This document shows positions 2,174 through 27,860 of a DNA stretch of 44,167 nucleotides, piece after piece. How positions within the stretch are numbered: position 1 is the first letter of the stretch; every line of letters starts with the position of its first letter. A program made the position numbers and the translations under genes. This DNA is from Catajapyx aquilonaris (taxonomy: Eukaryota): positions 1 to 44,167 of the forward strand of contig JYFJ02003266.1 in assembly GCA_000934665.2 (NCBI GenBank), given 5' to 3'. Below the pieces are notes generated by a model. The model saw only the letters and a list, made by a program, of their open reading frames with translations. It was not told where the DNA came from and did not search any database.

Positions 2174-2890
2174 CTTATTGGAGGCAGCGTCCCTCCTTGT
2201 CTGATGATGGGTGCCGTTGACCAGTGGACCTTCTCTGATGGGCCTTCTTCCTCGTTCTGCTGGGCTTGAGTTGCCACTGCTGCTGGTTGACGATGGAGGC
2301 GACGGTGCCTTCGGAGGTTTTGGTTGTCGTTTGGTCTTGAGGGCGATTGGAAGCGTCGGTGGTGGTGGTGGTGGAGGGGGTGGAGGTGGAGGAGGCGGGG
2401 GTGGAGGAGGTGGTGGCGGTGGCGGTGGTGCTGCAGGAGGCGACGGTGGATCCGACGTCGGCGACGACTGCGGCGACGACGACCCGCCCATTCTAGATCC
2501 ATACCCATCGTCGTTCACCATCAACAACTGCTGTTTGTGGTTGCACTTTTGTCGCTCTTGGGTGTGTATGACCAGGGGCGAACCCTGGGGCGACCTCCGG
2601 GCCGTGTGGTGGTAGTAATCCTCCATCGGGTGCAGATGTGGATGCGGAGGATGGTTATGGTGGTGGCAAGGATGGACCAGCATCGGAGGAGGCGGAGGTC
2701 CTCTCGGGTACATATGATGATGAGTCGGACAGCAACAATGGTGCGGCGGAAGATAAAACGGAGGCGGAGGAGGCAAAGGCGGCGGCAACAATGGTGCTTC
2801 CAGCCTCCACAGCTTATTCTTCTTCATGTCGTTCTTCTCAATCCGAATCAACGCCGGATGCCTCGGCCGGATCAACTGCAACGTGTTCAT
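2174..2890 (-). CDS. Pro/His-rich coding exon, probable alternative first exon of WDR47 (ORF stays open to 1967 if unspliced)
   Basis: GC-rich ORF with an in-frame stop upstream of the ATG at 2890, poly-Pro runs written in mixed codons, and a phase-0 donor AAG|gtgcat at 2174/2173. Assignment to WDR47 is inference. Confidence 0.5.
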
Positions 2891-5800
2891 CCTCAACACT
2901 GCAGACCACTGGTCAATTCCTCCACTTCAACTGAAGACAACTCTTTCCTCGAGACCGCGGATGGCAAGTGGCCACTTTTTCCCCAAGCCAAACTTTCCAA
3001 CACTGCTTAACCTGACAGGTGCCTCGCGCGACTCTTTTCTTTATTCTACCCCCACACCATTCCCAAGTCCTCCTATCCAGTCTAGCTTGACCTAGAAAGG
3101 CTCTCAACCACTCCATGACCACTCCTCCCCCTCCCGTGCTCCATTCTAAGCTTCCGTGCTCCTAAGAAAGAAAAAAAATCTTTTAAGAGTCCATGTCCAC
3201 CTTTTGCCGCCCCCAATCGCAAGGACACCTTCAAAAAACTATCTCTTTTCCAGGCCGCATATAAAAATTCCCGTGCAGTCTGAAACGACCTTACTTTATT
3301 GCCCCTCGCTGTGGGAAACATTGAGGTCGTTTACTCATTGATTACTATAGAGAATGTTTTCCGGCTAGTTTGCCATTTTGGGCAACATGTCCAATATCTG
3401 CCCAATATTCGCAATGGGTCCTGCTGTGTATCCAAATAGCTTCATCTAAACAATAAGTTTTTCCTCCCCATACACGAATTCAATTTGGGAAGTTTTTTTT
3501 CCCTTCCATTCTGCAGTCATTAGTGTCAACCCCTGTGTTGAATTTTGCATGATAAAGAGCCCACTTTTTTGCAAGAAACTGCTGTGTTTTTTCATCCACA
3601 GGCTTCTTCGTGACTGGGGAGCAAGAATGAGGACGATCTCCTGACAATAGCGGACTCACGTCAGAGGCATTCTTGGGAATTTTTTTGACAGGAAGATGAG
3701 GTAAGTTTTCTTGTGCATCGCTTTGTCACAAAAGATAAGGAGGAAGCAGCCTGTAAACCAAAGCATATACCCCCCACCATGCTAGCAAAAAGCCAACAGG
3801 ACGTTTGCCTTTACTGTACTACCTGGATCCTTCATGCTGGGTAGAAAGTTGTGAGAAAATACTGTACGGTAACGTACTTTCTTCCATGAACAGACCAAGA
3901 GGCCAGAAAAAAATGTTATTTTTTTTTCTTTCCACCGGAACCGACAAGGGTGATCTTCCTACAGTATCATGCATGTCTCTTCCGCATAGGAAATGCAAGG
4001 ATATACAGGGCGGTATAATAGATTAGATAGCGATCAAATTACTACACACTGTGAGGAGGAACAGCACAATATTGTAATGTTTACCAACACGGGAAGCTTT
4101 TCCTATTAATTTGAAGCCTCCTTACATGTATAAGGTGATGCACGGCCCAAGTCTTCAGTCAAAGGTTCTATCAGCAAGTGTAATCATTAAGTGAATATTG
4201 TTTTTTCCATAATTATTTTGAGTGTGTTTCACTCGTTCTAGCAATCATTCACTTTGAGCGAAAAATAATGAGCGACTTCGATTTGTGTCAACATTTTGCT
4301 GAAATTGGCGTTATTTCATAATTTCTTCTGAAAAACATGCTAGAGTACTTCAACTCGCACATAAATTGTCAAAATTACTGACGAGCAAACTGCTGGTTGC
4401 CAGACAATATGCAACTTCTTCCCCTTTACTTCCTTCTTGAATTGTACGTCCACGTATAACACGTAATACGTGTTATAACACATCTCCGTACAAATCGTTG
4501 CATGACTTCACAATTTCCGGAAGAACCTACAGCAAATATCTTCTGCAATTAGACCAGGAGCAGATAGACACATGCAAATAGCCGTGACGCAGCTATTTCA
4601 ATGGAATGTGAGAGCAGCAAGCATTTCAAAGCATATTTTCTTAGACTTCTCTTATCGCAGTTGGTTCGTGTCATATGGTCTGTATACTGTACAGTATAAA
4701 CGGTGCCGGCGCCGCTTGTTACGTCGTTGGGAGAAAGTAATTACAAGCCTGGTTCTGAAGTTGTAACAACTTTAAAAACCGTCACGGATGGGCTAGCTGT
4801 GGGCCTATACAGTCTGGTTTTCCTTTTAATTAACCTAAACCGAGATCTTGTTTTTCCCCCCCTCTCCCGGAAACCGGCGATTTAGCTCAAGCCGCACTTG
4901 GCTGCAGATAAGACCGCTTTTAAAGTGTTCTGTCGGCTTAAAAGAACGTGAAATTCGCGATAGGTTGTCTTTAATATCCACTCCCAATTTTCCACTTTCC
5001 AGGCCCGAAGCCAATTACCCAGGGGGGTGACGCAACGAATTGCCGGAACTGGACCCCGCCTTCATGAAATGACCGAAAAGACAATCAACAGTGTTTGTTC
5101 ATTGCAACTAACCTTGATAGGCTTTGCAATAATTACCTCGAGTACAACCTGCTCTAATGCCCGGAAATTTCAACAACAAATCGACAATAGCTTTGAGGAT
5201 TTCTCGCAAAATTAATTAATTTAAAGCTTCAAATGGTATTCCATTGCTGTCATTTACTACGTCGCAATAACAATGCTAAAGAAATGTTATTCCACTTGGA
5301 TCTGTTCAAAATCAGAGCATAAGTATGTAAATAATTATTAATTAAAATAATGAAGCTCGTTTACTCTGCAAGTCCACTTCCAGGAGTACGACTTTGTATG
5401 AAACAGATAACGTAAGTTGGGTTTTAACATACAAATAATACCGTATCTTTTCAGTATAACTGACAGCCGAAGCTGGCCGGCAGAACCAGCCATAACAACT
5501 CTTCTATCAGACAACTTCTTAGTGGTCAAGCGCATTCCAGACACTCGACTTTCCCATCAAGCGACAAGCACGCATGTTCTTGCTAACCAGGTTTTACATT
5601 CCACTCTACCACATGCATGGAGAAGAATGACAAAAAAATAGGGAGCTTTTTGCCCATTGAGGTCAAGGATAACATACACCGAATGGCGACACGGTGTGGT
5701 GACCCCGCGAATAATCACGTCCATGGAAGTGTACCTGATGCCAGCAGGTACTACCTTCCTATATAATGCTTTCTCCATCGTTCGTGTAAGCGTGAAGCGA

Positions 5801-7691: not shown

Positions 7692-7915
7692 GAGGGGCCT
7701 GAGCTCAAAAAACGGCTAAGTCAACTTGGAAAAACTGGTCGAAAAATGAGTAAAAACTTATGATTACAATTTTGAACCTTTTTACGTCAATATGTCGCCT
7801 CAGTTCAGCTACATACAGAAATGTCCAATTAATACCCAATGACATTAAAATACTGCAGCATTTGTGTTACACCCGCCAAAAGTGGTTTTGGCCGTTTTTG
7901 ATCTCAGACCCCCTC
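7692..7915. mobile_element. Sola-like MITE
   Basis: Imperfect ~27-bp TIR: GAGGGGCCTGAGCTCAAAAAACGGC versus the reverse complement of the right end, GAGGGGGTCTGAGATCAAAAACGGC. 4-bp TSD AAAT at 7688-7691 and 7916-7919; GAG termini. Confidence 0.6.
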
Positions 7916-8278
7916 AAATATTCGAAGCACGTTTTATGGTAAAAAAATGATTGTCATCCACAAACCCTTGGTGCAATTAATTATAATTAGAGAAAATGTT
8001 GCAAAATGCTGAAAATAATTAGGAAACTTTTCCCAGGCATCTTAATTCCCCCCCCCCCCCNCCCCCCCCCCCCCCACACAAATATGCGAGCAACATCTCT
8101 GTATTAAAAAAAAGAAATTAATCTCCGGGGCCAGCTCATGCGAACGTCACTTTCGCATTTTGCCATTCACTTTCCGCGAAACGCATGGCCGACATGACGC
8201 CATCCTTTGCGGTCACCTACACCGTACACGGTACAATTCAAAGCGTCCCCCATATAAATGAAGATGACGGTATCTCAC

Positions 8279-8860
8279 CACATCTGCGGTTTTGCATCCT
8301 GCCTCCATCTCCTCCTCTTCCTCGATGACAATATCCGGAGGACACCCGGTGCTTGAAGAGGAATCCCTGCGGAGATTTTCCAGAGAATCCTGCGAGAATG
8401 TTGATAGCCGACGTGGAACCCCGCCATTCTTGGAGTCCCTCCTGAGGCTCTCGGCCAGATAAGTGTTGAGCGACTCTCGTCTGATGCCTCCGTTGCTGTC
8501 CTTCCTGGTGCTTCCGTTGCTGTCCTTCCTGGCGCTTCCGTTGCTGTCTCTTCGTCCTGGAAGCGAGCTCCTCCTCGGGTCAGGGTTCGAATCCCGTCTC
8601 AGCATATTGGCCCAGAAGAATCCTCCAGAAGCTGCTGTCGGACTGTTGGAGCTGCTGCTGGCCACGCTCGAGGTCGACCCTCGACGCGATCCGGACGCGC
8701 TCAGACCAGGAGATGACCCTCGACGCTGACCATTATGCTGCTGGCAAGACTTGGGATCCGTCTTGCTATGCACAGTCAGCAGATGGCTCGTCTTCTGCGC
8801 CACCTTCAGGTCGTGGAACATGGACTCCAGCTTCCTAATGGCTCCTGAGGAATCCGCCAT
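8279..8860 (-). CDS. RRxS-rich coding exon (194 aa), probable alternative first exon of WDR47
   Basis: ATG in good context (gacATGG) at 8860, GC-rich open frame, phase-0 donor GTG|gtgaga at 8279/8278. Lies on the WDR47 strand, downstream of its N-terminal exons. Confidence 0.65.
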
Positions 8861-11421
8861 GTCCGCTCTAGGTTGGAGGTGATGTCCGAATGCCCGGAGT
8901 ACCGGTTATGTCACAGCAGGAATCGAGGCTGAACTCATGTGGCACACACCACACTTGCCCACTTAGCCAGCTAGCTCGTAACTATCGCGTAAGGAAGACA
9001 TACGTGTTCGAGCAACCCCCACCACCACCAGCCTCTCCTCCTTAATGCCTTCTTCGGCCTCCACTCCTACACACACACGGGGCCGAACCCAACCCATATT
9101 GGGTCAAGCTGGTGATTCAATCCAGCCAACCAGAGAACGCCGACGGATAACACGAGTGTCAAAAACGCAGCTTACCCCCACTACAAACTTGTTAAAAAAA
9201 AAGAGGCTCTTCCACGAAGACGGAAAAAAATGAGTCATCTTATGCTATGCTTGTCTAAGGGCCATTAACGGTGAATATTTCAGCTTAACGGATTTGTCGT
9301 GTTTGTAGATATTCTTGGGACACACACAAGGCGGCCTTCGATGCAATTTATGGGGCGTCAACCCCACCCAATTCTAAAGTGGTGGTTCCACCCTATTGTC
9401 ACGCGTGTAAAATTAAATAGCTCCTTAAAAAAAAACCCATAGGTATGCGCATAGAGCTATACGTAGGCTGCTGCAGGACACAGCTATTTTCTCCACCTGC
9501 TGCCAATTTCAGTGACTGATACCCTGTTTCACCTACGCAGACATGCTCAACCGGCTAATTGTCCGACTAATTGCAAAATGACCAACTTGTACCAGCCCCC
9601 TTGTAATGAGCCCCTAATAAATTGAAAACAGCAAAATGGAACGAAGCCAAACTTCCCAGGCCATATCCGGCCGCAGATATAAATCGGTCAGATTAATTAA
9701 GATTCCGGCTCCATGCTATTTTAATGCGTTTTCTTAAGGTACGAAGATTTATGCTCCAGACCGAGATCAGCCGAATACATCAAAGAGACGCGTCTGTATA
9801 AATATCTGTATATGGACTGCACGATTGTACATTGTATTCGTAATATGTATTGCAAGAAATTGATTGCATCTTGTGAGTCACAGCCAACGTTCATTATAAG
9901 AAAGATGAACCATGTATTCGCACAAATATTGGCAGAAACCATTAAAATCGCGACTCTTAATTTTTCATTTACCTTCTGAGTCGCATGTAAGGCAGCACCT
10001 CACGATAGCCCATGACCGACATAGATAACGTGTCACTCGACCCAGCGCAGTATGGGCGTGAAGGCTGCAAGAAACAAGCCTGGCTGCGTATCTAAAGAAT
10101 CAATCACATGTCCAGAAATGTCAGTTGTTTTGAAAGAGAAAACCTGTCATGGGCACGTAACATACGTCCCAATCACCTTGACCCCATTGAAAAAAGGCAT
10201 TCTGCGGATGAGAAATAAATCCCACGGCTGCCTTGGCTTAGGTTATGGCCTGAAGAGGACAACCTTTCACTCGACCTTTGCCTTGACTGCACACACCTTC
10301 CAAAAACTGGAACCGACGACCTTCCGTTTTTCGAGCTTCTCATGACCCGCTTTCGCACCTTCGACACCAATTTTTACGGAGGAAACCGCAACAGGGGCCA
10401 TTGACATTCTGTATAGAAAAACATAATAATTTCGGCTCCATCACGAGTGTAACCATGATGCTTGATACCTGTTATTGATAACGGGAGAATAGAATCTTCA
10501 AAACACCCCCCAAGCCAAGATGAACGTACCTGGCTATTACCACCCAAAAAATTACCGTGCAAATTTTTCCGTGCACAGATCGGATGTTTGTTTGAGGTCA
10601 TGACCAGGACCATGGCCTTCGCATCGTATATGCATCTCGTCTCGTTATGTTAAACCGACCGCTTTGAGGTCACAAGGATGTGGCCCAAGACTTGGCTGCT
10701 ATTGAAACGAAGGATGAGACAGCACATGCAATCAGGCAGGCATTTAGGGTGTTACGCTCAGAGCTACTGTAAAATAAGGAGTGAAATTATTCCTGGCAGG
10801 GTGAGAGCTACCTTACGTGCCAGCATAACACGACAAAAAAAGGAGCAGTACATAATGCTGCTTGAGAGCAGATGAGTGAGCTCACTGACCCCATCAATCA
10901 CCTGATGGCAAAAGCAGGAAGGGGTGCCTTGAATGGCATCTTCTGAGCTGGCCTAAATTACTTTCATTAGAAAGTCTTCAACATCGGGACAGACTGTTTT
11001 GTTTCTTCCATTCATCACCTGGGGGGCCTCCCTTCCACATTGTCAGAAACACAGAGACTGATTTAGTTATTGCATGAAGGATGAACAACTTTCTGAGCAC
11101 CCACAGCCTTCCTAAGAGCGCCTCGTAACAAAGGTGTGCATTTCTAAATTCCGTTGGACAAGCTCCTACCTCGAGTTATAAATATAGCAAAATGCCAATT
11201 TGGTGATTTTCATATGAATGGAGCGTTGTTTGCGATTGTCCAAGCCATTGTGAACGCCCAAGCTGCAGACAATATAAAGCTTCATGGCTGGAAGGCCACA
11301 ATTGACAAGCGAAAACTGTGGCCCTCCCTTATAATTTTGGGAGTTGGCCGGAAAGAACAGAGAATGAGGGAGTGGGGGGAAAATGTAAAGGCCACTTTGT
11401 TGCAAAAGAAACAGGCCCTAC

Positions 11422-14400
11422 CTTTGTTGCATCGAAGTGGCCATCTTGGTATGCCATGGCATCGGGTGCTTGCTGAGTTGGTGGTGTCATGTTGGACACT
11501 GGTGGTCTGAAAAGAATTTAAAAAATAACAAAAATTACACCACGAAGATCCATTATGATGCAAATAATGATCATGTGAAGAAACAAATATCAAGTAAATG
11601 AACAATGATTTTGTGCGTAAACTGATTTTCAACCTTTCTTGCAGGACAGACTTCAGCGGAAAAAGTAGTTCATGCATAAAATAAGAAAGGAGCATTCTTC
11701 ACAATTGTGCAATTGTGTATTTCAGACTAACTTATAAATGCAAAGAAAGGTAGCAAATACTTGCCTTGAAAAATTGTTTTCAACTACCACACCCTGCGCT
11801 GGAGCCATTGGATGCTGCGGCATTGTTGAGATACCATTCATGTTGGCCGTTGTTGGCGGTGGAGGTGGCGGTCCTTTTGCTTGCGGGTAAGGTGGCTGCG
11901 GCCTCATAGATCCAGGTGGAGGAGGAGGGGGAGCACGATTGACTCCAGGGTTACCCATAGGTTGGGGAGGGGCGGCCTGGTTGCGTGCAGCCAGTGGAGG
12001 TGGTTTGGGCATTGTGTCTGGTAGGTTGACTCTGTAAATCAATCGCAAGTTATGGGTACAATCACATTCAGTGGTGCAAATGGTGTTCCTTACCGCTCTG
12101 ACTGGTAAGTAAAATAGGATGCAACATTCATTTTGTAAGTCTTAGGGCCGGTTTCACCGAGCTCAGTATATGATAAAACCAGGGTATTTCTCAAAATCCC
12201 TATCTATTTGTCTGGATTTTCCTAAAGAAACCTGGTTTTATCATATACCAAGCTCGGTGAAACCGGCCCTTACTGTGCACTGGACTCTTGTCAAAGGTAA
12301 GCAGATAATAGTGTCGTCAATTTATTATCTAAAGACTGAATTGCAGTGAAGCCTGTGCATAATGTACAGCAAATTAAGAAGAAATCTTCCCATTACGAAA
12401 CTTTTGTTTGGTCAGAGCATGTGATTTTCGATATACGTATTTCTGTTGAATATAACAGAAACTAATTCACAACGGAAAATTTTTGCAGACAAGAGAGTCT
12501 GATATACACTGGCTTCACTCTAAAACCATTATACTGCACATTTTTGAAAACACAGCATACATAGTGAATTGAGTAACCCATTCGTTCTAAAGCAGTCTAG
12601 TGTATTCAATGCTGGGAGGAAACTAACGCTGTGAGGCATCAAGTTATTGAGAAGTAATATTACTTATGTGCAATGTCAGGCCCCTTACGTACTTTTATGC
12701 AATTTGTTACATGTGTGGTACCTTTAAAATGAAATGGTTTTTTAAAAAGGTACCACATAGATTCAGTCATAAGCTACATGCAACCTTTAAAATTAAGCAT
12801 TTTCTTAGGCCTCCTGAAAGGTTGTCATTTCACCACAGAGCAGGTTTTTATTTTACAGCAATGATATAATACACAGGGCGATTCTTTTAGCAATTTTTTG
12901 GGGAGGGAAAGTGGGTCTTATATGCCATCAAACAGTGTTAGCTGTTGTGATAATTTCAATGTTACCTCTGCATATTATTATTATTATTATAATCATCATC
13001 ATCATTACAGCAAGCACTATCTGTTCAACAACATTATGCATTCATAACTACGGCAAATATATTCCTTATGTTTACCTCTCAGCCACAGCTTGGCAAACTG
13101 TTTCACTGACCTGGTAGGTGGGCTAATACCCTCCTCCAGCATTCGGTTGTCCTGCCCAAGCTCCTGCAGCAGCTCCTCCCTCTTCTTCTCCTGCACCAAC
13201 AACTCCTCCTGGAACTTCTGCTTCTGCTTCTGGTACTCCTTGTACAAGTCCGACCCCTGACTTTTCGGAGGGGTTGCTCCAGGCTTGCCATCGGGTACTG
13301 TACTCTCTACCTTTGCCTGCACCAGCTTCGAATCAGGTCTGGGCGAATCTCTTCCTGTGGCTGCCTGCAATGGCGTTTGTCTCTTCGGGGTGTCTTTTGG
13401 AGTCATGCTCTTTGGTGTATCATCATCTTCCCAGTCCCCTTTTGATCTCTTATCAGCTTCTGGCTTGGGATTCTCCGATATTGCAGGAAGATCTGCATAG
13501 GATGATGACTGCAGGCTAGACTCTTCATCAAATAGGCGGTCTACAGAGGTCGCCATCCCACGACCCCTTCCTGTCAGGTGAAATCCTGCAAAACTGCGAG
13601 ACATCCCACCAGGAGTTAGGTCAATTGCTGATTGGGTCACTGATGCAGTTCGACCTTGGCCCAGCCCAAAAGGTAGGCCATCCAATGCTGGGATGAGTGA
13701 CCTTGACATGATGTCTGCTGACCTGTTGAGAATTGAGACTTTAAGTACATCTATCATATGTTTTAACCCATACAAATTTGGCAATTAAATTTTTGATTTC
13801 ACCATTAGAAATCATCGTCTACTTGTGTCCTATTGCACCGCACAGAAAACCTATTACATCACATGATCAACTAATCCAAATCCATACGCACCTTGAGCAA
13901 GATGTAAATTAACTGTTATTGAATTTACGTGAACCAAATAAACTTTTGCATGATCTGGAATTATCCTCATTAATTATTAGCCTTTTGTTCTGTTAGTGTT
14001 AGGTGTGGAAAGATCATCTCACACTACCTGCAGTAATCAATTTCATTTGAGATGACAAGGGCACCACCCACTTCACGAGATTAAACATTTGGATCCTACG
14101 CAAGTACACTCACAATAGCAGGAAGTGCAGACCATTCTACTCACTTGGGCCTGGTGTAAGGCATGGCAGAGTGTGGGAACATCTTTGGCTTGATTGGCGT
14201 GACAAGCATGTGCTCGGTCCAGGAGGTCTCCAGGGCTGGCTTTTCTAACCTCTCAACATCCACATTGAGGGTACGCTGCTCAAAAGGGCATGAAAAGGTC
14301 TCTCCGGGGATGCTCTGCAGCCACGACAGAAGGCTCAGGTCAGAATCGCTGAATCCACACCCTACAGTTGACAGAAATAAAGACTACGATGAGAGATATT

Positions 14401-16271
14401 TTCAATCACATACAACTCAGCATGAAGGCAGGTTTCCTGTAAGTTATTGTTGTCTTTTTAGCCTGATCACATGCTGTTAGAAGCTCTTGCACAATTTCCA
14501 CCAAATTCTTTTGCCTGCCACCTTCTCTGCATATGACCTCACAACAAGTTCATTCGCTGATTACAATGGCATCCAGAATTCATTTTCTTATTCATCTTCT
14601 TATGATGTTCCTCACTAACCCCATGTGGTAGATCTTTACCATACCTGTATCTTTGCATACTAAGAAAGTATTATGTAGTTCAAGCTGTGCTGTAGTGCTT
14701 GGTTTAAAAAGCTGAGTGTTACGCACACATGTAATACAAGGACTTACGGTTTTCACACATTACAAACACCGAAGGAGACTTACAACTGATTCGCACAACT
14801 TGCACAAGTAGATGCCTTGATATTCCTCAGTGTTAGTGTTTAAATGACTTGAACACAGATACTTCATGAGATCCAAGAACCATACTGATACTGTCCATGA
14901 ATCTTTTTATACAGTACCTTGATTTGTAGCATACAGCCCTACATGTTTGATAAAATTCAGTCATTATTAGTGAGTCAGTCCAGCATTCAGAAGAGTTCGT
15001 ACCATTGAGCAGTGAGGCGAACCGCATCTGTCCTTCATCCTTCCCTCCGTTGATAGCCTTCCTCTGGCAAAAATCAACGCAGGACTCATACAGCAGGCCC
15101 TTGATAACCAGCTGAATCAGTCTGTCATTTTGTGCCACATTTTTCTCCGCCTCGATCCCTTCCTTGACCACGTCACCTCCGGCAGCTTCTGCCGTCTTCT
15201 TCTTTTCCAGCCCGGGCAGAAACTTCTCTACCAATGGTAACACTGCCCTAAAGCACTGCACCCTTGCACTACTTGGGTTCCAGTCTCTATAGAGCGCATG
15301 TTCTGAGAGTCTGGGTAATGTCAACAGCAGGCACAGGTTGGAGTAATCCTCCTTGCATGGTGCGTACTTCTCCAGCTCATTTAACACCTTAGGCAATGCA
15401 TGAAAAGAAAAGAGATAGAGTGCTCTGCATATGATACATGAAGGATGTGTTACAGGATCATTTTCACCTTGAACATACACCATTTTTAGTGGAAGTTGTT
15501 CCTAAGTTTATCTCGAAAATGAGCATTTTTAATCCAAAAATTTTGCAGTTCTTTCCAATGGACTCAGGAGACTACAGAAACCTGGGATAATTCTAGTTTT
15601 CATATTTATACGAGTAATGGCAGATGATTGGTGATTTCTCCATTTGCATATTGAAATTAACGCATCCAAAATACGGTTCTCTACTGAACTACATCAAATG
15701 TTAACCAGTGTAACCATTGTTCAAAATAATTAATTTTATTAAGTATCACTTTTAATGAACAGTATGAAAGTCTAAAAATTGGGCAAAAACTATCCTGGAC
15801 CACATCCTTTCACTATTAGCTCATCAAAATATAGTGAAAATAACATTTCTTTGCACGCATTCAGTATTAAACAGGAATTAACACTTTACTTGCGAAACGA
15901 AGTATGATTCTCAGGTATGAACTGACCTTCACCACCTCGTCCACAGCTGCCTCCATGTTTGCCACAGCACCAGCCTCCGATTTGATACAGAGGAGTTCGA
16001 CGTACTTGTGTCGAAGAATCAGGTATCTAAAGTGTCGCTTGTCAAATGATTCCAATGCTTCCAGTGGCTGAACAAATTCAAGGGCATCGTCCCACTGCCC
16101 ATCCAGAATAAGCTGCCGGAGGAAGAGGAGGTCATCCCCATGACTCCCATTGATGACTCCCGTCTCCCGCTCAATGCTAAGCTGGGCGATGTGGAGACCT
16201 CGGTTGTCCAGGAACTCCAGGGACAACTTGACCACATCCTCCTCTTTCAGGGTTAGATGTGCAGAGGGCAT
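11422..16271 (-). CDS. WDR47: WD repeat-containing protein 47 (nemitin) homolog, N-terminal LisH/CTLH and linker exons; gene probably continues beyond the left edge
   Basis: Phase-consistent exons 16271-15927, 15387-15003, 14361-14145, 13722-13111, 12031-11765 (GC donor) and 11506-11422. Translation includes LKEEDVVKLSLEFLDNRGLHIAQLSIERETGVING..LLFLRQLILDGQWDDALEFVQPL, DYSNLCLLLTLPRL..WNPSSARVQCF, RLIQLVIKGLLYESCVDFCQ, DLSLLSWLQ and MSRSL, all WDR47-typical. The last two exons are less certain. Confidence 0.9.
12145..12269. mobile_element. PIF/Harbinger MITE in a WDR47 intron
   Basis: 39-bp TIR GGGCCGGTTTCACCGAGCTcaGTATATGATAAAACCAGG with 2 mismatches. TTA TSD at 12142-12144 and 12270-12272. 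Confidence 0.85.
12344..12520. mobile_element. Degenerate Tc1/mariner-like MITE
   Basis: Left end CAGTGAAGCCTGTGCATA versus reverse complement of the right end GAGTGAAGCCAGTGTATA. Flanks are TG and TA (decayed TA TSD). Confidence 0.4.
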
Positions 16272-19254
16272 TGTGGATGAAGAGCGCCTGCAGAGATACA
16301 TTCAGGTTTAGTAAAAACATGCCAATTCTGTGATAGCAAAAAAATAGCAATAATAACCATTTAGTACAACAACATATTTGGCATAGATAGTGAGCAATAA
16401 TGCATATTACATTCCCAAAATGTAGACATTACCAAAATTAAAAACAGACACGAATGCATTAGAAGTACTCCAACATTCAGAGGACCAAAATCTCAAAGTT
16501 GACTGCCCCTTCTGGCATGTCCCATTAAGAATAAAAGGTACCTCTTCCCAAGGCAGATGAAATGGGAGTTCCGCAAGAACCGAAAAAAAAAAAACAATCA
16601 ACCCTTTTCATATTAAAAACTCTCCATCTCTCCTGATCAATAATTGTAAAGCCCATCCAAAGCCCATCAGCTGATCCCCCTCCTCAACTGACAGAATCCA
16701 TATTTTACTCCCAAATGAGAGCAGCTTTACAATTTTAATATTATGGCACAGGGAGGAATAAGCACATTTTACATTCAAAACATGTGGAATGGATGGAGGT
16801 CTGTAAAGTTTTGAGACTCTCTTCTGTAATGCAATCAGGGAGCCCAATCGAAGGGCGCGGATCTGCAGTTTCAGCAAGTACACATGGAATGAGGGATGTC
16901 CTTCCTTATTTCTCATGATTTGCGCACCACAGTAAAAGGAATACTATCACTACCTCACTGCACTGCTGAAATATCTGACAGAAGCAAATTCTGCTCAGAA
17001 TGTCGGACACAGTGAAACAGCATCATTGAAAATCACTTGCACATCTTCATGCAGCTTCAAGGTCTGTTTCAGAAGCAGACTGCTCAAGTCAATCATAGTT
17101 TGTCAACCTGAATAATGCAGTGACCTGACTTGACAATACTTTCCACCACCTCCTCTAATTTTAACAGGCAGTTTCATACATAAGACTCATAAGTGTTATT
17201 GTGTTGGTTCATTGTGGTTTCTCTCCCATACTCATTTGAATTGGGCTTTGGCATCGAATATCCATTAAGCCGAATGCACGTGCCCATCCCCCTTTAAAAA
17301 AAAACACTCATTATTTTGAGATATAAAAGTAATAGCATATTATTTCCAATGCTCGTGAAGTAACACCAGCAGCCACGAAAACTCCAGCCAAACCAATCTC
17401 TCACTCTCTCTCTCTCTCTCCCTCTAAAAAAAAGGAAGTGTACAATGGGATTAATATTTCCCAGTTCTTTGCCCTTTTTCCAAGCTTAATAAATAGATCT
17501 ACAATAATGCAAAAACTTTTCTGCTTCTTCTGGAAGAAGGGCAATGCCTAAACACCCCCACAGATTTTGGTCATAGCTTAAGAGAACTTGGCCAGAAAAA
17601 CTTCTTCAGATACTGCACGTCGCACTGTATTACCAAACCCTACAAGAAATCTTGTGGCACACTACATCAAAAGGGTACTGTTTCTGTTAAAGTACTGGAT
17701 CTGCATCTTCAATGCCTGCTTTTATGCTACAATGCTTTTTGTGTGTATGCAGGCAAGTTTTTGCATTTAAGGATATACTACACTGTATTTCAAATCCCAC
17801 TGTACTTGTATTTAATAATGTCAGTGAAACGTCTTCTTTCGTCCCTTCGAAAATTTGTCACATATTCGCAAAATTTGCCGCAATATGCCAGAAATTCTCG
17901 CATGAATACAATCCCATTAAAAATGGCAGCCTTTTCTAGTTTATTTTAATCCTAGAGCTGCATTTTAAATTCACATCCACAAGATCATGAAATTGTGCAT
18001 CTAGCTACGTTCACTTGGCTGATTCGCGTGCTGCATTCTGTCAACATGACTGGAACCAAGCTGGCTGCGGGCCATACACAAACAGTTTGTCGAACAACAA
18101 TTTTCGCCTAATGCAACAAATTTTCTGCCTCATGAAATGAAAACGAACGGAGGGAGCGCCTGAGCAGAGGCTCGTTTCAAAGGAAAACCTGATCGAGAAA
18201 CTGTGTAGGAAGCGAGGAATCCAATAGTCTCAGGGCAATGCACGCTGGTGTCCTTCACCTATACGGGGCCAAAAACTTGCCCCATTTAAGTTTCATTTTC
18301 ATATAAATCCCACTAACGAATTGTACTGTACGTCTCTGGCGGCAAGACGGAGCCTTCAAGAATATAAAAGAGACCATTGTCTCGCACTCCACGCTTTGTT
18401 GGACCCTCTCGGAGGGGTTAAGAAAAAAACGACCATTTTTGTACCCCATCTCGTCATCCCCAGGACTTTCATTAGCTATTCGGAAACGGGATTAGTAATT
18501 AAATTTCATTTCCGCAAGGATAACTCCCCAAACACTGAAAATGTCCGGTATTTTGTTTGTGTCTCAAGAGTGCCGTAAGGTTATCAAACGGGGTCTGACG
18601 AGGTGACAATACCCTTTTATGCAGGTGAATGGAATAAAGCCATTCATACGCCACTAATCGAGTTAGATCGTAAGTATTACTCCGGAACAATGCAAAAAAA
18701 AATCGCAATTAACCCTATTCCCTCGATGCTCAAATTACAGCAGTTTAGGGGCAATGTGTCACAATTTACACTGCTAAATTCAATCCACTGAATGGTACCA
18801 GAACCTGTCGATTCGCGAAACTAATTTACAACCCAATTACACTGTGTAAACATACTGCTTTATTGCTTTATCGTATGCTTCTAACTTTTGAGTCATTTTC
18901 TCGCAGATTTTGGGACGTGGAAAAAAAAATTGCGGCGGTTGAAACAATGCAACTGACAGACGGGGCGGTTTGTCACGCTGAGTGGAGTCAAACCCTGCAT
19001 CATTAATAACTTCATAAATGCAAGTGGCTCGAGGGAGAGGCCAATGAATCTAGCTGGCTCATCCTGTCGAAAAAATACGATCGTTGAACCGTGAAAAAAA
19101 CAACAGCATCACAACAGTGCACAACTATCCGGACGCTCTAAAAAACCGTTGGGAAAATTCAGTCCAATACACACTCCTGCCGAGGGTGACAATTTGGGAA
19201 ACCATTATTTTAGGCTTTTCCCCCCTCAAAAAATAAAATAAAATAAAATAAGAG

Positions 19255-19600: not shown

Positions 19601-19731
19601 TTCCGACTACCCAATGAGAAAAAGTCTACTCGAATCACGCTCGCGTATACTGTCAGCACATTCACATTCACCGTCACCCACACAGACACAGGAAAATGAC
19701 AAACCGGCGGTGCATCCGTCGCCGCCGGTAC

Positions 19732-19889
19732 CTGAGGACCCGGTTCGCGATCCTCAGGTAATCTAAGTACCTTCGTGTACACAAGTCGCGCACTCTCCTC
19801 ACGATGCTGCCCACCGCCCATCTCGGACTCTGACCACCACCGTACGAAGAAGATGGAGAAGATGAAGATGATGCCGTGGTCAGAACCAT
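19732..19889 (-). CDS. WDR47: Alternative coding first exon of WDR47 (N-terminal extension)
   Basis: Kozak gccATGG at 19889. The phase-2 donor CAG|gtaccg joins the acceptor at 16287 in frame, giving ...YLRIANRVLR-RSSSTMPSAHLTL. Confidence 0.65.
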
Positions 19890-23700: not shown

Positions 23701-24849
23701 AAAAATGGGTCCATAAAAAAATCGGTGTCAGTGACCAGCTTTCCTGCTTGACAGGAAGATCTGTCATGAAAACGTCACGTTCAGTGCATCTCAAAATTGC
23801 AGTCCAACCACGTACTGTACATGCACATACGCAAATGTACTTTTGTGTGTGCAAGGTATGCCTTCTCAAGTGCAATTAACTCCCCTGGGGAGCAGTTTTG
23901 GCCCCCTTTTCCTACCCCCAAGCCCAAGCAAAAATCAATACAGATGTGGGTCTGGACATATATACTCTCTCCCCCCCATCATAGTTAATTTGTAGTCTGT
24001 CCATACAGGGACTCGTGACCACAATAACATTACTGAAAAACGGGAGCACCTTTTGTAATGCAGTCAATCGCTAACCTACTTGTGTCAAACGCACAGGTTG
24101 CGGATGGACCAGGAAAATAATTTCATAGAAAATGTGATTACACGCGACGAGTTGCTCAAACAAACAAAAGGAAAATAAATAAGTGGACAACACTTTCCCT
24201 TTCGCTGCCTGTTCACAGGTTAATTAGCTCTTATTATCCATGCCCATTATTATGTTGTGAATACACAAAGTTGTGCCCGGACGGCGCACCTCCTCCAGCT
24301 TTAAAAAAATATCGGGGCAACTCAGTTGTGGGAAAAGTGTGTTCCAGAATGTGATCACGCAATGAGATGACGCCTTTTACTTAGGTAAAACGAAGTGATC
24401 TTGAGGTCTGATAATTTTGAAAAACCACGAATGCTGCCGTTCTTTCATGCATCCCGCATCATGTAATATCAAGGGGGAAATCTCTCCGCAACTTTGTGCT
24501 TGGCTGCCAAGAAACAACCGAATCGGATATTATGCTGCCAGAATGCGACTGTGTTCATCTGCAGTTGTAACAAGTTCCACAGCATCAGGTCAATTCAGAT
24601 GTTAATGTATGTGCCTGCAAATAACCTTGATTTACTGAAGGAAGCCATAAACTCACATGAAAGGGCGAAACTGCATGCATGTTGCTTTTGCTATGCATCG
24701 AAGCAGCATACTTTTTTACATTATGCTGCAACTTGGCCTTGTTAAAACTGTTTCATTATAAGCATGTGCAGGAGGACAGCAGTGGTATTGAAAAATCGCA
24801 TCAATTACTGGAATTGTGCAGTGCAGTGATTAAAAATAAGCCCTCACCA

Positions 24850-26330
24850 TACCAAATTCATGGGCAAATTGATTTCGAAAAATTGGAATAATGCAAATGC
24901 TCGTAATTTTTGTGACAAGATTCATCAAATTCCTACAGTTTGGTTTCAATACTATCACTTAGTTAGATTAACGTCTCAGTCATCCTTCAATGATGTAAGA
25001 GGTATTTGAATAATCTTCCTGCCAGTAGAGCTGAGCTAGAAAATTGTTATGGAGCTTTTACCCCACAAATACTACATGAAATAATTGAAACCTGGACAAT
25101 GTGGAACTCTTTAGTAAATGAAAATCCAGTCATATTTATGACTACATGAAAGAAAATGGGAGGTGACAACTGACTTTTGTCCATGGAAAACTGTTGTGAT
25201 GATGAAAGAGATGTCACGTTTACAATCTGAGGTGTAATCTGGCCAACAATAATTATTCAAAATGCTGTATTTAAATACAGGTATTGAATAGTTTAGCAAA
25301 TAATCGTAGGCATCAAAAAAGGATGGAACCTTTGGCATAATTTTCACATCATATTTCTTTATCATCTAATCTAATCACAAATAACTAAACGTAATAGAAA
25401 GCAACACATCCATTCATGCAATGCGCCCTCAAAACATCTGCTTATGAACTTGATTGCATGACTGCACTTGCACAAAAAAAAAATCCTGATCATGTTGAGC
25501 ATTCACTTAGCCCAAGTAAAAATTCCACCTGGCAGCAAAGTTCAGACATACGAGATATTGCCAACTGTTTCAGCCAGTTCACTCTGGTTGTTGCCAGTCG
25601 TTCTGGTCATTAGTGCAGAATACATGAAATGTTTCTAATGCAATAAAATACAGTGTTATGTTAAAATGTGTTATTAGTAAGCCCAATATCATTAGCACAT
25701 ATCATTCATTTGTACTACTTTTAGCTTGCAGGTGATTACCCTATGGATAGATGACTCTCCAGATAGGCCAGAATAATCTCAATGCCCTCATCCTATCAGG
25801 CCACATGTGCAGAAATTACATTTTCAAAGGAACCCATAGAAGATCGATTTTGTTGGCCAATTTTTAAAGTCTCATATAATTTACTTAAATTGATATTCAA
25901 TAAAATAAATGCTGGTTGAACAATGTAGCAGCACTGCAAATTGAGTTTTCATAATGGGGAATCATACATTTACAAATTTTTAAATTATTACAATTATTAC
26001 TGTCTGAAAATCGTGTGAAACTCAAAAAATTACCTATCCTCTGCAATAATTGTCACAAAATATGAAGTTACAAATTCTGCCACCTCGATAGCACTTACTG
26101 TGTCCACTGAAAATACTTAAAGTTCTCTACTTTCAAGCCCAGATTTTCACTACTCAGGAAACAGACAGGACCATTTCAAATCGGATATTCACTTTTGCAT
26201 CCAATAATATTGGAAACAACTTCCAACAGAAATTATCGCCACACACTGAAAAAGCGATTCGCGATGAATGCTTTGAAATATTCTAAATAATGGCACTGTT
26301 GGAAACCTCTGACGACTTTTGGTTTTCTAT
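24850..26330 (+). mobile_element. Possible highly decayed LINE (L2/CR1-like) ORF2 remnant
   Basis: Short frameshifted peptides in the expected order: FCDKIHQI, NALILS, and SNRIFTF..WKQLPTEII (resembles the WNxLP C-terminal motif). No intact RT motif seen. Confidence 0.3.
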
Positions 26331-26496
26331 AAATGGTGGCTGGTAACCAATTTTTAAACTTCCATATTGTTTGCTACAACTGGAATTTAATGAAATTGAT
26401 GAATATGCCTGCTTCGATTCCCAGTGCAACAACCTTTCATTTAGAATGCAAACATCAATTTATCTGCTATTGTTAAGTTTTCATTCATTTAATCAA

Positions 26497-26829
26497 GGGG
26501 AGGCGGAGTGCCACTGCAGAAACGCGCCCACAGATGGAAGGGTCCAGGGTTTGATCCCAAGCCCGGGCTTTCCCCCTCTCATCTCGTGCAGAGTTGGGTC
26601 GTCTCCGGCTTTGTCTCGGGTGGGATTCCTTGAGACTAACCATCCGGGGGAGTTCACAAAATGTACCATATGAGACATTGCACTGCACATTGCACCTCCC
26701 TTCTCACTCATCCCTGCTCACGGACCCGGGCACTTTGTAAAAGGTTCAAGAATGTACGGTGTACACAGGGACATAGTCAAGGTACATGCTACATACCTTG
26801 CAATGAGGTCAAGCACTACCATTATTCAG

Positions 26830-26886
<57 letters not shown>

Positions 26887-26892
26887 ATAATT
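26497..26892 (+). mobile_element. tRNA-derived SINE with (ATT)n tail
   Basis: GGGG start, B-box-like GGTTTGATCCC at 26548-26558, (ATT)n tail at ~26820-26892, and a 14-bp TSD with one mismatch: ATTCATTTAATCAA (26483-26496) / ATTCATTCAATCAA (26893-26906). Confidence 0.75.
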
Positions 26893-27672
26893 ATTCATTC
26901 AATCAATCAAAAATACAGTCCTCTTCTCAAATTGATTTTCAATGCACAAAATCTTTGAACCCATGAAGAGACCCAAAATGGTGGCCCAAATTAATTATAT
27001 TGTAGTTTCTATTTCAGGTTCACATTCACATACAAGCATACGACAGGTGCTAGTGGATAGTCCACATATTTCCGCAGCCAATGTGATCAAGTGGAATACT
27101 GATTTAAAATATTGAAAGCAGTCGACACTGATTCTTTTCTCAACATTCCTATATATCTGCAGTGGTAACTACGAGTCTACACCAAGAATCCAGTGGACAC
27201 TTGGACGTTTACATGCCTTCTTACTGTTACTGCTAACCAAAGTTATTACGCTAATGGGATAACTTCTCTTGCAGACTAGTAGTGTACAATACAGCCATTC
27301 CTTAGAAGCACCCATCACAAGCACTTTGACGTAAGTTGAATGACATCACGCTTCCTCCCTGGTCACACTTCCAGGGAGACCTCCTTGTCACTACCATCGT
27401 GTTATCGACAAGTCTACTTTGGCCCTAGTGTACATGAGCCGACACCTTTTGAAGTTGCAATGGATAAGTCAACGACCGGAATTCCAAATCCGACCGCTGG
27501 CCTGACCAGAGTCCATCCTGCAGCAGCCTACTAATTCTAGCAGTGTGCCTGTTCTGGCCCTGCTGGCCCCTCTCTGCTGTGTAAACAGAGCTCCTCCACT
27601 GACCCACAGTTGGTCCATCCCCAGAAACGATTCCTTTGAAATAATGTCATGCACATATAGACAGTGACTCAC

Positions 27673-27860
27673 CCTCTCGTTTATGACTGCCGCCCTTCTT
27701 GCCCTTCTGCAATGCCTCCTCCTCCTCCTTCCTAGCCGACCAGATCCTCGTGGGGGCCGCCCCTGCGTCTAAGGCCGGTGTCGTCCTCTGCCCGGGGCAG
27801 CAGCTCCCTCGCTCCACACTCCATTTGGGACTAGTGCCTGCTGCTGTCAGATTCCCAGGC
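27673..27860 (-). other. Putative non-coding first exon (5' UTR) of WDR47 with a 30-aa uORF
   Basis: GC-rich block ending in a strong donor GAGG|gtgagt at 27673/27672, divergent from EEFSEC. A stop lies in the WDR47 frame, so it would be UTR. uORF at 27824-27732. The 5' boundary is approximate. Confidence 0.5.

What the first reader, a model, noticed from the sequence alone, without database searches (positions are those of the whole stretch)
2174..27860. WDR47 appears to swap N-termini through up to four alternative first exons
Seen: candidate first exons end at donors 27673 (non-coding) and 19732 (coding, in frame with the LisH exon). Two more ATG-initiated exons (8860-8279, 2890-2174) lie downstream of all LisH/CTLH exons, and both exit in phase 0, like the last reconstructed long-isoform exon (11422). 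Known: WDR47 is LisH-CTLH plus a C-terminal WD40 propeller, and the N-terminal part mediates dimerisation and CAMSAP/Patronin binding. Inference: internal promoters make isoforms in which the same propeller carries a phospho-switch or a polyproline N-terminus instead of LisH/CTLH.
Basis: partly seen in the sequence, partly recalled or inferred. Interest (0 to 1): 0.72.

Follow-up and report, generated by a model that had tools for sequence, protein, structure and literature searches.

The report
Alternative first exons of arthropod WDR47
This arthropod WDR47 gene has an internal first exon, conserved across insects, that swaps the CAMSAP-binding head for a head rich in phosphorylation sites on the same propeller; a second, proline-rich internal exon remains unproven.

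Summary
The window is arthropod-like, not vertebrate. It holds the 5' part of WDR47 on the minus strand. Six phase-consistent coding exons (16271 to 11422, 637 codons) encode the LisH/CTLH head and linker. No propeller exon lies in the window.

Exon 8860-8279 is a real, conserved alternative first exon.
- A profile of it finds annotated insect WDR47 isoforms of 520-675 aa with WD40 domains and no LisH/CTLH domain.
- In 3 of 3 same-contig long/short pairs the isoforms diverge right after the homologue of the exon ending at 11422.
- A reciprocal profile hits only this ORF among 906 window ORFs (E 5.8e-14).
- An intron-free environmental contig encodes the complete short form.
- The propeller-opening exon has a phase-0 acceptor in 9 of 9 genomic loci examined.

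The coding exon 19889-19732 is in frame with the LisH exon and resembles insect N-terminal extensions.

The non-coding exon at 27673 and the polyproline exon 2890-2174 stay unverified. The polyproline exon looks coding but has no homologue, and I could not search it against the large protein collections.

Such isoforms already exist as database models in other insects. I score this a new member of a known kind, of moderate interest.

The parts
27673..27860 (-). Candidate non-coding first exon. Donor AGG|GTGAGT follows 27673.
   Evidence: The donor matches 8 of 9 consensus positions. It lies about 0.9 kb from the eEFSec start on the other strand. An ATG-led frame here would leave in phase 1 and not fit the LisH exon (my reading). 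No transcript evidence.
19732..19889 (-). Alternative coding first exon: ATG at 19889, 52 codons plus 2 bases, donor CAG|GTACCG. It adds a 58-residue extension in front of the LisH-exon methionine.
   Evidence: Frame and phase fit the LisH exon acceptor. It starts MVLTTASS, like MVVATSS, MVVVTSS and MVVSTPAP in insect long isoforms. phmmer finds nothing significant.
15927..16287 (-). LisH exon: acceptor CTGCAG|G, ATG at 16271, donor AAG|GTCAGT, phase 0.
   Evidence: 70-80% identical to arthropod WDR47 over 115 aa. Boundaries.
15003..15387 (-). CTLH exon.
   Evidence: tblastn 50-61% identity. AG acceptor, GT donor and phase.
14145..14361 (-). Third coding exon of the N-terminal domain.
   Evidence: tblastn 74-87% identity. 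Boundaries.
13111..13722 (-). Fourth coding exon (disordered and coiled-coil part).
   Evidence: tblastn 32-55% identity. Boundaries.
11765..12031 (-). Fifth coding exon (proline-rich linker), followed by a GC-AG intron (AAG|GCAAGT).
   Evidence: Only phase-consistent join between its neighbours. No direct homology hit.
11422..11506 (-). Sixth and last long-isoform-specific exon, ending ...YQDGHFDATK. Donor AAG|GTAGGG, phase 0.
   Evidence: Matches ...LQDGHYDVIK of Cephus cinctus isoform X2 just before the point where long and short isoforms become identical.
8279..8860 (-). Internal alternative first exon of 194 aa: N-terminal helix motif (AIRKLESMFHDLKVAQ), 11 R/K-R/K-x-S/T sites, acidic tail (DIVIEEEEE), donor GTG|GTGAGA in phase 0. 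It includes a 24-bp x3 tandem duplication at 8481-8553.
2174..2890 (-). Candidate second internal first exon of 239 aa: 67 prolines (one run of 24), His-rich, a CCC cluster. Donor AAG|GTGCAT in phase 0. Status unproven.
   Evidence: coding-like, best donor. (no homologue found).

Best explanation
The window holds the 5' two thirds of an arthropod WDR47 (nemitin) gene on the minus strand, and the gene is transcribed from several promoters.

Two upstream first exons feed the LisH exon. One is probably non-coding, at about 27.7 kb, next to the divergently oriented eEFSec gene. The other is coding, at 19889-19732. Both give long isoforms whose 637 window-encoded residues (LisH, CTLH, coiled coil, linker) end at 11422.

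The next intron is longer than 11.4 kb. Inside it sits an internal first exon (8860-8279) with its own ATG. By orthology it is spliced in phase 0 to the same propeller-opening exon, which lies left of the window. The product is a short isoform in which the dimerising, CAMSAP/Patronin-binding head is replaced by a 194-residue head. That head has a short N-terminal helix, then a disordered stretch with 11 basophilic-kinase-type sites (RRxS) including RRxSxP motifs, then an acidic tail.

Shown here: the exon's anatomy, its orthology to short-isoform N-termini, the shared junction in other species, and the phase-0 acceptor in other genomes.

Inferred: that this species splices it the same way; that an internal promoter drives it; and that the short form keeps propeller functions without CAMSAP binding or LisH dimerisation (in mouse the propeller targets the ciliary central lumen and binds SPEF1 and JHY). 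Also inferred is that phosphorylation, perhaps with 14-3-3 binding, regulates it.

The proline-rich exon 2890-2174 may be a further head of the same kind, but that is open.
For: Gene identity and structure:
- The LisH exon is 66-78% identical to WDR47 proteins, and all named hits among the best 120 are arthropods.
- Four N-terminal exons map by tblastn with 13 of 13 queries.
- The six exons join into 637 codons without a stop.

Orthology of 8860-8279:
- One hit in 1.84 billion representatives: P0121, E 1.1e-4, 40% identity.
- A two-sequence profile found 12 proteins at E <= 0.1 among 7998 scored candidates. Eight carry WD40 Pfam families and no PF25602. Seven of them are named WDR47 and one (Cephus cinctus) is named tupA isoform X3. 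The other four are unnamed single-ORF contigs.
- Accessions include Ischnura elegans X3 XP_046391417.1 and Cephus cinctus XP_015608709.1.
- A reciprocal profile of 12 such N-termini, built without window sequence, hits 1 of 906 window ORFs, 8216-8905(-), at E 5.8e-14.
- The conserved blocks stand in the same order in 15 sequences.

Shared junction:
- In 3 of 3 same-contig pairs (Cephus, Ischnura, Neocloeon) the long and short isoforms share an identical C-terminal 347, 344 and 346 residues.
- In Cephus the long form there ends ...QDGHYDVIKSMK, the homologue of window exon 11506-11422.

DNA and transcript-like evidence elsewhere:
- Contig L004 (2202 nt) has one uninterrupted ORF with an in-frame stop upstream, then the head and the full propeller. 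L001 is a partial equivalent.
- Genomic contig L012 has the homologous ATG exon ending AIIEEE|GTAAGC in phase 0, 8.9 kb upstream of the propeller exons.
- The propeller-opening exon has a pyrimidine-rich phase-0 acceptor in 9 of 9 genomic loci examined, of 28 fetched.

Properties of the head:
- 11 R/K-R/K-x-S/T sites, against 1.11 +/- 1.00 (maximum 5) in 2000 shuffles. There are 5-16 sites in 15 of 15 family members, and RxxSxP occurs in 12 of 15.
- An AlphaFold2 model of the Cacopsylla short isoform has a helix at residues 3-16, pLDDT below 50 for residues 1-9 and 14-239, and a confident propeller from about residue 240.

Function of the two halves in mouse, from passages read:
- The N-terminal region binds Camsaps, and WdrC alone enters the ciliary central lumen (PMC8490363).
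- The WD40 domain binds JHY and SPEF1, and residues 1-315 serve CAMSAP binding and dimer formation (PMC12979858).
Against: - No transcript evidence for this species.
- No genome flank was available, so neither the propeller exons nor the splice from 8279 can be seen here.
- The insect short isoforms are XP_-type database models, and I could not inspect their RNA support.
- L004 and L001 are unnamed environmental contigs. That they are transcripts is inferred only from their lack of introns.
- The first search with the exon alone among longer proteins found nothing (0 of 4619 candidates).
- The exon is compositionally biased (bias 21 of score 48), although the N-terminal block scores 28.7 with bias 2.3.
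- The kinase and 14-3-3 reading rests on recalled consensus motifs, not on any test.
- The helix in the model has low confidence.
Confidence: 0.85

Rival explanations
1. One reading: the proline-rich exon 2890-2174 is also a genuine WDR47 first exon. It is driven by a second internal promoter and spliced in phase 0 to the propeller-opening exon.
For: - ATG-led 239-codon frame. Its donor is the best consensus match in the ORF and exits in phase 0.
- The codon-usage score in the stated frame is 0.142, the best of six frames. The maximum over 300 random intronic windows is -0.092. The N-terminal 35 codons, which are not low-complexity, score 0.318 against 0.02 or less in the other frames.
- The 24-proline run uses four synonymous codons (CCA 12, CCT 6, CCG 4, CCC 2), so it is not a pure DNA microsatellite.
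- No AATAAA or ATTAAA lies within 670 nt after the ORF's stop.
- Precedents exist. Cephus cinctus isoform X6 (XP_015608714.2) has its own 43-residue N-terminus joined directly to the propeller-opening exon. Cephus and Ischnura each have five annotated 5' variants.
- In genomic contigs L012 and L013 a third ORF lies between the RRxS exon and the propeller exons, 1.3-1.6 kb upstream of the phase-0 acceptor. It is ATG-led in L012, exits in phase 0, and carries a proline stretch and a Cys cluster.
Against: - No homologue was found. Pfam gave none and the Atlas gave no usable hit.
- phmmer against 133 stored proteins and 2005 locus ORFs gave a best E of 0.02, with bias above score.
- Three profiles or queries do not hit it: the L012/L013 third exon, Ischnura X4 plus Cephus X5, and Cephus X6. 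Pairwise E-values are 0.13-0.97.
- Nearly all six frames are open in this stretch, and a (GGN)n reading on the plus strand would show the same codon pattern.
- Phase 0 alone is expected by chance about one time in three.
Confidence: 0.35
2. The 2890-2174 ORF is not part of WDR47. It is either the first exon (or the whole 308-codon ORF to the stop at 1967) of a small lineage-specific gene nested in the long intron, or a non-coding low-complexity stretch that happens to be open.
For:
- Low-complexity composition with open frames on both strands.
- Weak discrimination between frames over the whole exon: 0.142 against 0.088 and 0.050.
- TRF reports a (GGT)n-type array at 2358-2440.
Against: - The N-terminal part has a clear frame preference, and codons in the proline run are mixed.
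- The best donor in the ORF exits in the phase that the propeller exon needs.
- No poly(A) signal lies close behind the ORF.
- No other nested-gene exon with a Pfam domain was found among 99 intronic and flanking ORFs.
Confidence: 0.5
3. Exon 8860-8279 belongs to an independent gene nested in the WDR47 intron and not to a WDR47 isoform.
For: It has its own ATG, and conservation starts at the methionine. It has no Pfam domain. The downstream partner cannot be seen in this window.
Against: In 8 of 8 longer proteins with domain hits found with its profile, the head is fused to the WDR47 propeller. The junction is identical to that of the long isoform in 3 of 3 species pairs. Intron-free contigs L004 and L001 carry head and propeller in one ORF.
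Confidence: 0.03

Closest known systems
Annotated short WDR47 isoforms of insects, for example Ischnura elegans X3 XP_046391417.1, Cephus cinctus XP_015608709.1 (named 'tupA isoform X3'), Zophobas morio X3 XP_063911116.1, Anthonomus grandis X4 XP_050301768.1, Neocloeon triangulifer X8 XP_059472191.1
   Same: An ATG-led head with the same ordered blocks: the helix motif ..RLE.[LM]F.D[VL]K.., a C..H motif, RRGS, RRDS, RRxSxP, RR.(F)STDSL[DE] and an acidic ..I.EE tail. It is joined to the propeller at the point where the long isoform joins. There is no LisH/CTLH domain.
   Different: The window's head is short (194 aa against 175-328). It lacks most of the RRNSWDPGRRGSSGSSGGWDDPIWEE block and has a private 24-bp x3 duplication. 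Identity is only about 27-46% over the parts that BLASTP aligned. Those are database models, and here the join to the propeller is not visible.
[quoted passage not shown]
   Same: A propeller-bearing WDR47 without the LisH/CTLH head. The paper predicts that it does not bind Patronin while keeping the SPEF1-binding propeller.
   Different: The paper presents it as one of 'two types of WDR47 orthologs' in different insect species. Here, and in at least Cephus, Ischnura and Neocloeon, both types come from one gene through alternative first exons. I could not obtain the fly sequence with these tools, so whether its N-terminus is the RRxS head is untested.
Mouse WdrC construct (C-terminal WD40 part of Wdr47), PMC8490363 (passages read)
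   Same: It is a propeller without the Camsap-binding N-terminal region. It enters multicilia and sits in the central lumen on its own.
   Different: It is an engineered truncation with no replacement head. The natural short isoform adds a conserved head rich in phosphorylation sites.
Other annotated 5' variants of arthropod WDR47: Cephus X1, X2, X5, X6 and Ischnura X1, X2, X4, X5
   Same: Several alternative first exons per gene. Two or more lie upstream of the LisH exon (MV..T/S.. coding extension, or none). Two or three are internal, and Cephus X6 joins straight to the propeller exon.
   Different: Their internal heads (MMF/MMY..RFRI.ER.., MRPLLYIEKK..) are not detectably related to the window's proline-rich exon. 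Two of them join the linker exons rather than the propeller exon.

Membership tests
WDR47 / nemitin gene (long isoform) | N-terminal LisH-CTLH domain (homologues carry PF25602) | tested here: met
   The LisH exon finds 629 proteins at E <= 0.001. Nearly all of the best 120 carry PF25602, and those that carry a family name are called WDR47. Four exons map at 32-87% identity with 13 of 13 queries. Pfam on the single 115-aa exon alone gave no hit.
WDR47 / nemitin gene (long isoform) | C-terminal WD40 propeller | not testable with these tools
   No WD40 exon lies in the window. No genome flank is held. The last mapped exon ends at 11422 with an open phase-0 donor.
Short WDR47 isoform head (RRxS-rich alternative first exon) | ATG-led exon whose conservation starts at the methionine, with the N-terminal helix motif | tested here: met
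   Alignments. Upstream residues are unrelated in the window and in P0121. Profile domain 1 scores 28.7 with bias 2.3.
Short WDR47 isoform head (RRxS-rich alternative first exon) | Many R/K-R/K-x-S/T sites and an RRxSxP motif | tested here: met
   11 sites against 1.11 +/- 1.00 in shuffles. RRGSSP, RRDSNP and RRSSLP are present.
Short WDR47 isoform head (RRxS-rich alternative first exon) | Acidic ..I.EE tail followed within a few codons by a phase-0 GT donor | tested here: met
   Window: DIVIEEEEE, then 9 codons, then GTG|GTGAGA. L012: AIIEEE|GTAAGC. Five unnamed genomic ORFs lose similarity just after this motif.
Short WDR47 isoform head (RRxS-rich alternative first exon) | Lies on the gene's strand between the last long-isoform exon and the propeller-opening exon, and is spliced to the latter | tested here: inconclusive
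   It lies 2.6 kb downstream of 11422 on the same strand. The propeller exon and the splice cannot be seen. Orthologues show the join, and the acceptor is phase 0 in 9 of 9 loci.
Alternative promoter (own transcription start) | A mapped transcription start upstream of each first exon | not testable with these tools
   No run could be listed for this stretch, so no reads could be laid.
WDR47 alternative first exon (proline-rich exon 2890-2174) | Homologous head in a WDR47 isoform of another species, or a visible splice to the propeller | tested here: not met
This test is limited, because the large protein collections were not searched with this exon.

The most novel reading that the evidence does not exclude
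In arthropods the WDR47 propeller is a shared module served by interchangeable heads from separate promoters. One is the CAMSAP/Patronin-binding, dimerising LisH-CTLH head. Another is an ancient head rich in RRxS sites that acts as a kinase- and 14-3-3-controlled switch for CAMSAP-independent propeller functions, or competes with the long form for propeller docking sites. The rest are lineage-specific heads such as the proline/histidine/cysteine-rich one here. The 'N-terminus-less' WDR47 of Drosophila would then be the RRxS isoform that survived after the long-isoform exons were lost, not a separate ortholog type.
Probability: 0.3. Interest if true: 0.7.

Novelty: new member of a known kind. 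Interest (0 to 1): 0.5.

Why it matters
WDR47 is studied as an adaptor. In mouse its head binds CAMSAPs and dimerises, and its propeller targets the protein and binds SPEF1 and JHY (PMC8490363, PMC12979858; passages read).

A natural, conserved isoform that keeps the propeller but swaps the head for a module rich in phosphorylation sites would separate these two activities in vivo. It would also give a handle on their regulation.

The one paper I found that touches on this (PMC12979858) speaks of two types of WDR47 orthologs in different insects. The data here show both types encoded by one gene in several arthropods. That reframes the Drosophila case as isoform loss, and it can be tested by one alignment.

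In three full-text searches no listed WDR47-centred paper contained 'short isoform'. The isoforms do exist as automatic database models, so this is a described-in-databases but uncharacterised feature. It is not a new kind of system.

Tried and rejected
- Whole-genome access: none is held for this window, so the sequence left of the window could not be inspected.
- Sequencing runs: none was listed, so read laying could not be used.
- First protein search with exon 8860-8279 alone among longer proteins: none of 4619 candidates scored. The profile search later succeeded.
- Pfam: no family for either internal exon, for P0121, or for the L012 and L013 exons. None at curated threshold for 99 intronic and flanking ORFs; the one sub-threshold low-complexity match, New_glue, I dismissed.
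- ESM Atlas with the proline-rich exon: no usable hit.
- Earlier findings of the scan: nothing by place, sequence or word. One search did not complete.
- Profile of the L012/L013 third exon against window ORFs: only a 20-residue Cys-rich match at 18004-18129(-), E about 0.01, which I judge to be chance. It does not hit 2890-2174.
- Profile of the Ischnura X4 and Cephus X5 heads, and phmmer with the Cephus X6 head: no window hit below E 0.1.
- phmmer of the proline-rich exon against 133 stored proteins and 2005 locus ORFs: nothing beyond compositional bias.
- phmmer of the 52-residue upstream extension against stored proteins: best E 0.062, not significant.
- I considered whether 8860-8279 or 2890-2174 could be internal cassette exons fed from the phase-0 donor at 11422. 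From the sequence, the only AG sites between the upstream stop and the ATG give phase 2 (8860 exon) or phase 1 (2890 exon) and have poor pyrimidine tracts. I rejected this.
- I first took the window for a vertebrate from its composition. One search rejected that.


Full report
**What the window is**

The LisH-exon translation (window 15927-16271, minus strand) finds 629 proteins at E <= 0.001. The best 120 are 66-78% identical, and every one that carries an organism name is an arthropod: ostracod, insects, centipede, spiders, crustaceans. The window is therefore arthropod-like and not vertebrate. No close relative is in the collection.

Neighbouring genes are as follows:
- eEFSec lies on the plus strand at about 28.6-30.6 kb.
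- A syntaxin 6/10-like gene lies on the minus strand at about 33.8-31.8 kb.
- A 593-codon leucine-rich-repeat ORF lies on the minus strand at 36964-35183.

**Checking the observation**

The long isoform:
- tblastn with 13 full-length or N-terminal WDR47 proteins maps four exons at 16271-13100.
- A weaker match places a small exon ending at 11422. Its ...YQDGHFDATK lines up with ...LQDGHYDVIK of Cephus cinctus isoform X2.
- Splice sites read from the sequence give six coding exons: 16271-15927, 15387-15003, 14361-14145, 13722-13111, 12031-11765 and 11506-11422.
- Each of the five downstream exons follows an AG acceptor; the first is read from its ATG at 16271, and its own acceptor (CTGCAG|G, exon start 16287) comes. 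Five donors are GT and one is GC (AAG|GCAAGT after 11765).
- Joined, they give 1911 nt = 637 codons without a stop, ending in phase 0.
- No WD40 exon is in the window. The propeller must lie beyond the left end, and the intron after 11422 is longer than 11.4 kb.

The four candidate first exons:
- The donor after 27673 is AGG|GTGAGT.
- The exon 19889-19732 has an ATG, 52 codons plus two bases, and the donor CAG|GTACCG. The LisH exon begins at 16287 with the one base that completes the codon, so the frame runs on into the methionine at 16271.
- Exon 8860-8279 is 194 codons from ATG to GTG|GTGAGA.
- Exon 2890-2174 is 239 codons from ATG to AAG|GTGCAT. Both internal exons exit in phase 0.

**The exon 8860-8279**

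Searches:
- Alone it found nothing among longer proteins.
- It found one protein among 1.84 billion representatives: P0121, an unnamed 249-residue ORF, E 1.1e-4.
- The two align from the methionine to an acidic ..I.EE.. motif. Outside that span they are unrelated, as expected for a first coding exon read through into UTR and intron.
- A profile of the two found 12 proteins at E <= 0.1 among 7998 scored candidates. Eight are 522-675 residues long with WD40 Pfam families and no PF25602. Seven of them are named WDR47 and one (Cephus cinctus) is named tupA isoform X3. They come from Hymenoptera, Hemiptera, Coleoptera, Odonata and Ephemeroptera. Four are unnamed ORFs that hold the head only.

Junction in other species:
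- In the three species where I hold a long and a short isoform from the same contig, the pair shares an identical C-terminal 347 (Cephus), 344 (Ischnura) and 346 (Neocloeon) residues.
- They diverge at one point. In Cephus the long form there ends ...QDGHYDVIKSMK, the homologue of the window's exon ending at 11422.

Reciprocal test:
- A profile of 12 short-isoform heads, built without the window or P0121, hits only ORF 8216-8905(-) among 906 window ORFs. E is 5.8e-14 and the next best is 3.5.

The multiple alignment shows the same blocks in the same order:
- a helix motif (window AIRKLESMFHDLKVAQ);
- a C..H motif;
- RRGS and RRDS;
- an RRxSxP site (window RRSSLP; RRESMP in many insects);
- RR.(F)STDSL[DE] (window RRLSTFSQDSLE);
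- an acidic tail (window DIVIEEEEE).

**Evidence independent of database gene models**

A scan of metagenome contigs with an alignment of eight short isoforms gave 28 loci.
- L004 (2202 nt) has one uninterrupted ORF with an in-frame stop upstream. It starts with a methionine and a head carrying ..LDAMFHDV.., RRLSLP, RRDSLP, RRCSLP and ..VIFEEDEDE.., followed by the whole propeller.
- L001 is a 5'-truncated equivalent (E 3.6e-22 to the head profile).
- In genomic loci the propeller region is split by introns. These intron-free contigs are therefore most simply transcript assemblies. That is an inference.
- L012 is a 15.5-kb genomic locus. It has a homologous ATG-led exon ending AIIEEE|GTAAGC in phase 0, 8.9 kb upstream of the propeller exons on the same strand.
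- I examined the 9 of 28 loci that are genomic and begin at the propeller-opening exon. In all 9 the pyrimidine-rich CAG or TAG acceptor of that exon is in phase 0. L022 and L023 are identical there, and for L019 I read the acceptor from the printed DNA.

It fails to refute in every relative examined, but it is still untested in this genome.

**The upstream first exons**

- Of 118 stored WDR47 proteins with the MPSAHL-type start, 38 have residues in front of it. Several begin MVVATSS, MVVVTSS, MVVVTHT or MVALS. Ischnura isoform X1 begins MVVSTPAP. In both Cephus and Ischnura, alternative extensions join just before ..LRIRYV-MP...
- The window's MVLTTASS... extension fits this pattern and is in frame, but phmmer gives no significant score.
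- The exon at 27673 has a strong donor and lies about 0.9 kb from the divergently oriented eEFSec start. Nothing more can be said without RNA.

**The exon 2890-2174**

For it being coding:
- The stated frame has the best codon-usage score of the six (0.142). The maximum over 300 random intronic windows is -0.092.
- Its first 35 codons, which are not low-complexity, score 0.318 against 0.02 or less in the other frames.
- The 24-proline run mixes four codons.
- Its donor is the best in the ORF, and no poly(A) signal follows the ORF closely.

Against, or neutral:
- Nearly all six frames are open there.
- Frame discrimination over the whole exon is weak.
- No homologue was found in Pfam, in the Atlas, or in the stored proteins and loci. 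Profiles of the other annotated or candidate heads do not hit it either.

Two things raise its prior:
- Cephus isoform X6 has a 43-residue head of its own joined directly to the propeller exon. Both Cephus and Ischnura have five annotated 5' variants.
- L012 and L013 share a third ORF between the RRxS exon and the propeller exons. It exits in phase 0 and carries a proline stretch and a Cys cluster.

I put the chance that it is a WDR47 head at about one in three.

**How it most likely works**

Shown in mouse, from passages I read:
- The N-terminal region binds Camsaps, and the WD40 part alone enters the ciliary central lumen (PMC8490363).
- The WD40 domain binds JHY and SPEF1, and residues 1-315 serve CAMSAP binding and dimer formation (PMC12979858).

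Inferred for the short isoform:
- It should go where the propeller goes without bringing Patronin/CAMSAP and without LisH dimerisation.
- It would then act on its own, or compete with the long form for propeller docking sites.

Its head:
- It has 11 R/K-R/K-x-S/T sites, against 1.11 +/- 1.00 in 2000 shuffles. All 15 family members have 5-16 such sites.
- RxxSxP is present in 12 of 15.
- From recalled consensus motifs (PKA/AGC kinases R-R-x-S; 14-3-3 mode 1 with R at -3 and P at +2), I read it as a multi-site phospho-regulated and possibly 14-3-3-binding module. This is untested.
- An AlphaFold2 model of the Cacopsylla short isoform gives a helix at residues 3-16. The head has low confidence (pLDDT below 50 for residues 1-9 and 14-239), and the propeller from about residue 240 is confident.
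- A 24-bp x3 tandem duplication at 8481-8553 added RKDS sites in this lineage.

**Comparison with what is known, and novelty**

- The short isoforms exist as automatic models in public databases (accessions).
[quoted passage not shown] No listed WDR47-centred paper contained the term 'short isoform'.
- The data here indicate that both types are isoforms of one gene in several arthropods. The head that replaces LisH/CTLH is a conserved module of its own.
- This is a new member of a kind that is annotated but uncharacterised. It is not a new kind.

**Verdict**

- Observation: confirmed.
- Interpretation: partly supported. It is strong for 8860-8279, reasonable for 19732, and open for 27673 and 2890-2174.
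- Interest: 0.5.

Noticed in passing
window 11763-11764 (minus strand), intron after exon 12031-11765: The only phase-consistent donor of the proline-rich linker exon is a GC donor (AAG|GCAAGT), so this looks like a GC-AG intron.
   Followed up: partly
window 28230-28581: A tandem repeat (143-bp unit x2.5, 93% matches, with 49-bp sub-repeats) sits just upstream of the eEFSec start. It lies in the roughly 0.9-kb spacer between eEFSec and the candidate WDR47 first exon, a possible shared bidirectional promoter region.
   Followed up: no
window 28583-30567 (+): A selenocysteine-specific elongation factor gene (GTP_EFTU, euk_SelB_III and eEFSec_4th domains), oriented head to head with WDR47.
   Followed up: partly
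window 31787-33803 (-): A syntaxin 6/10-like gene: STX6_10_61_N domain at 33803-33534 and a weak SNARE match at 32335-31787.
   Followed up: no
window 35183-36964 (-): A single 593-codon ORF with only weak leucine-rich-repeat matches, below Pfam cut-offs. It may be an intronless LRR gene.
   Followed up: no
window 141-548: A dense array of short tandem and inverted 14-97-bp repeats built on AGTGTCACT/AGTGACACT at the left end of the window, inside the long WDR47 intron.
   Followed up: no
L012:7758-8348 (+) and L013:1-357 (+): The two genomic contigs share an ORF with a cysteine string (CCSCNCYCCCD / CSCCCYCCCD) and phase-0 donors (GGA|GTATGT, CAC|GTAAGT). It lies between the RRxS exon and the WDR47 propeller exons and may be a third head in those species. 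A Cys string of this kind suggests palmitoylation, which is recalled knowledge and untested.
   Followed up: partly
L006, L011, L025: In these compact loci the CTLH exons and the propeller exons lie within about 150-500 nt of each other, leaving no room for internal first exons. The multi-head architecture is therefore not universal among the organisms sampled.
   Followed up: no
one search hit list: Many arthropod 'WDR47' entries of 500-650 residues carry only PF25602 and no WD40 family. They may be gene models split at the long intron that, in this window, holds the internal first exons.
   Followed up: no
window 8061 and 20360: Two single N bases. The one at 8061 lies about 220 nt downstream of the 8279 donor, inside the intron.
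   Followed up: no
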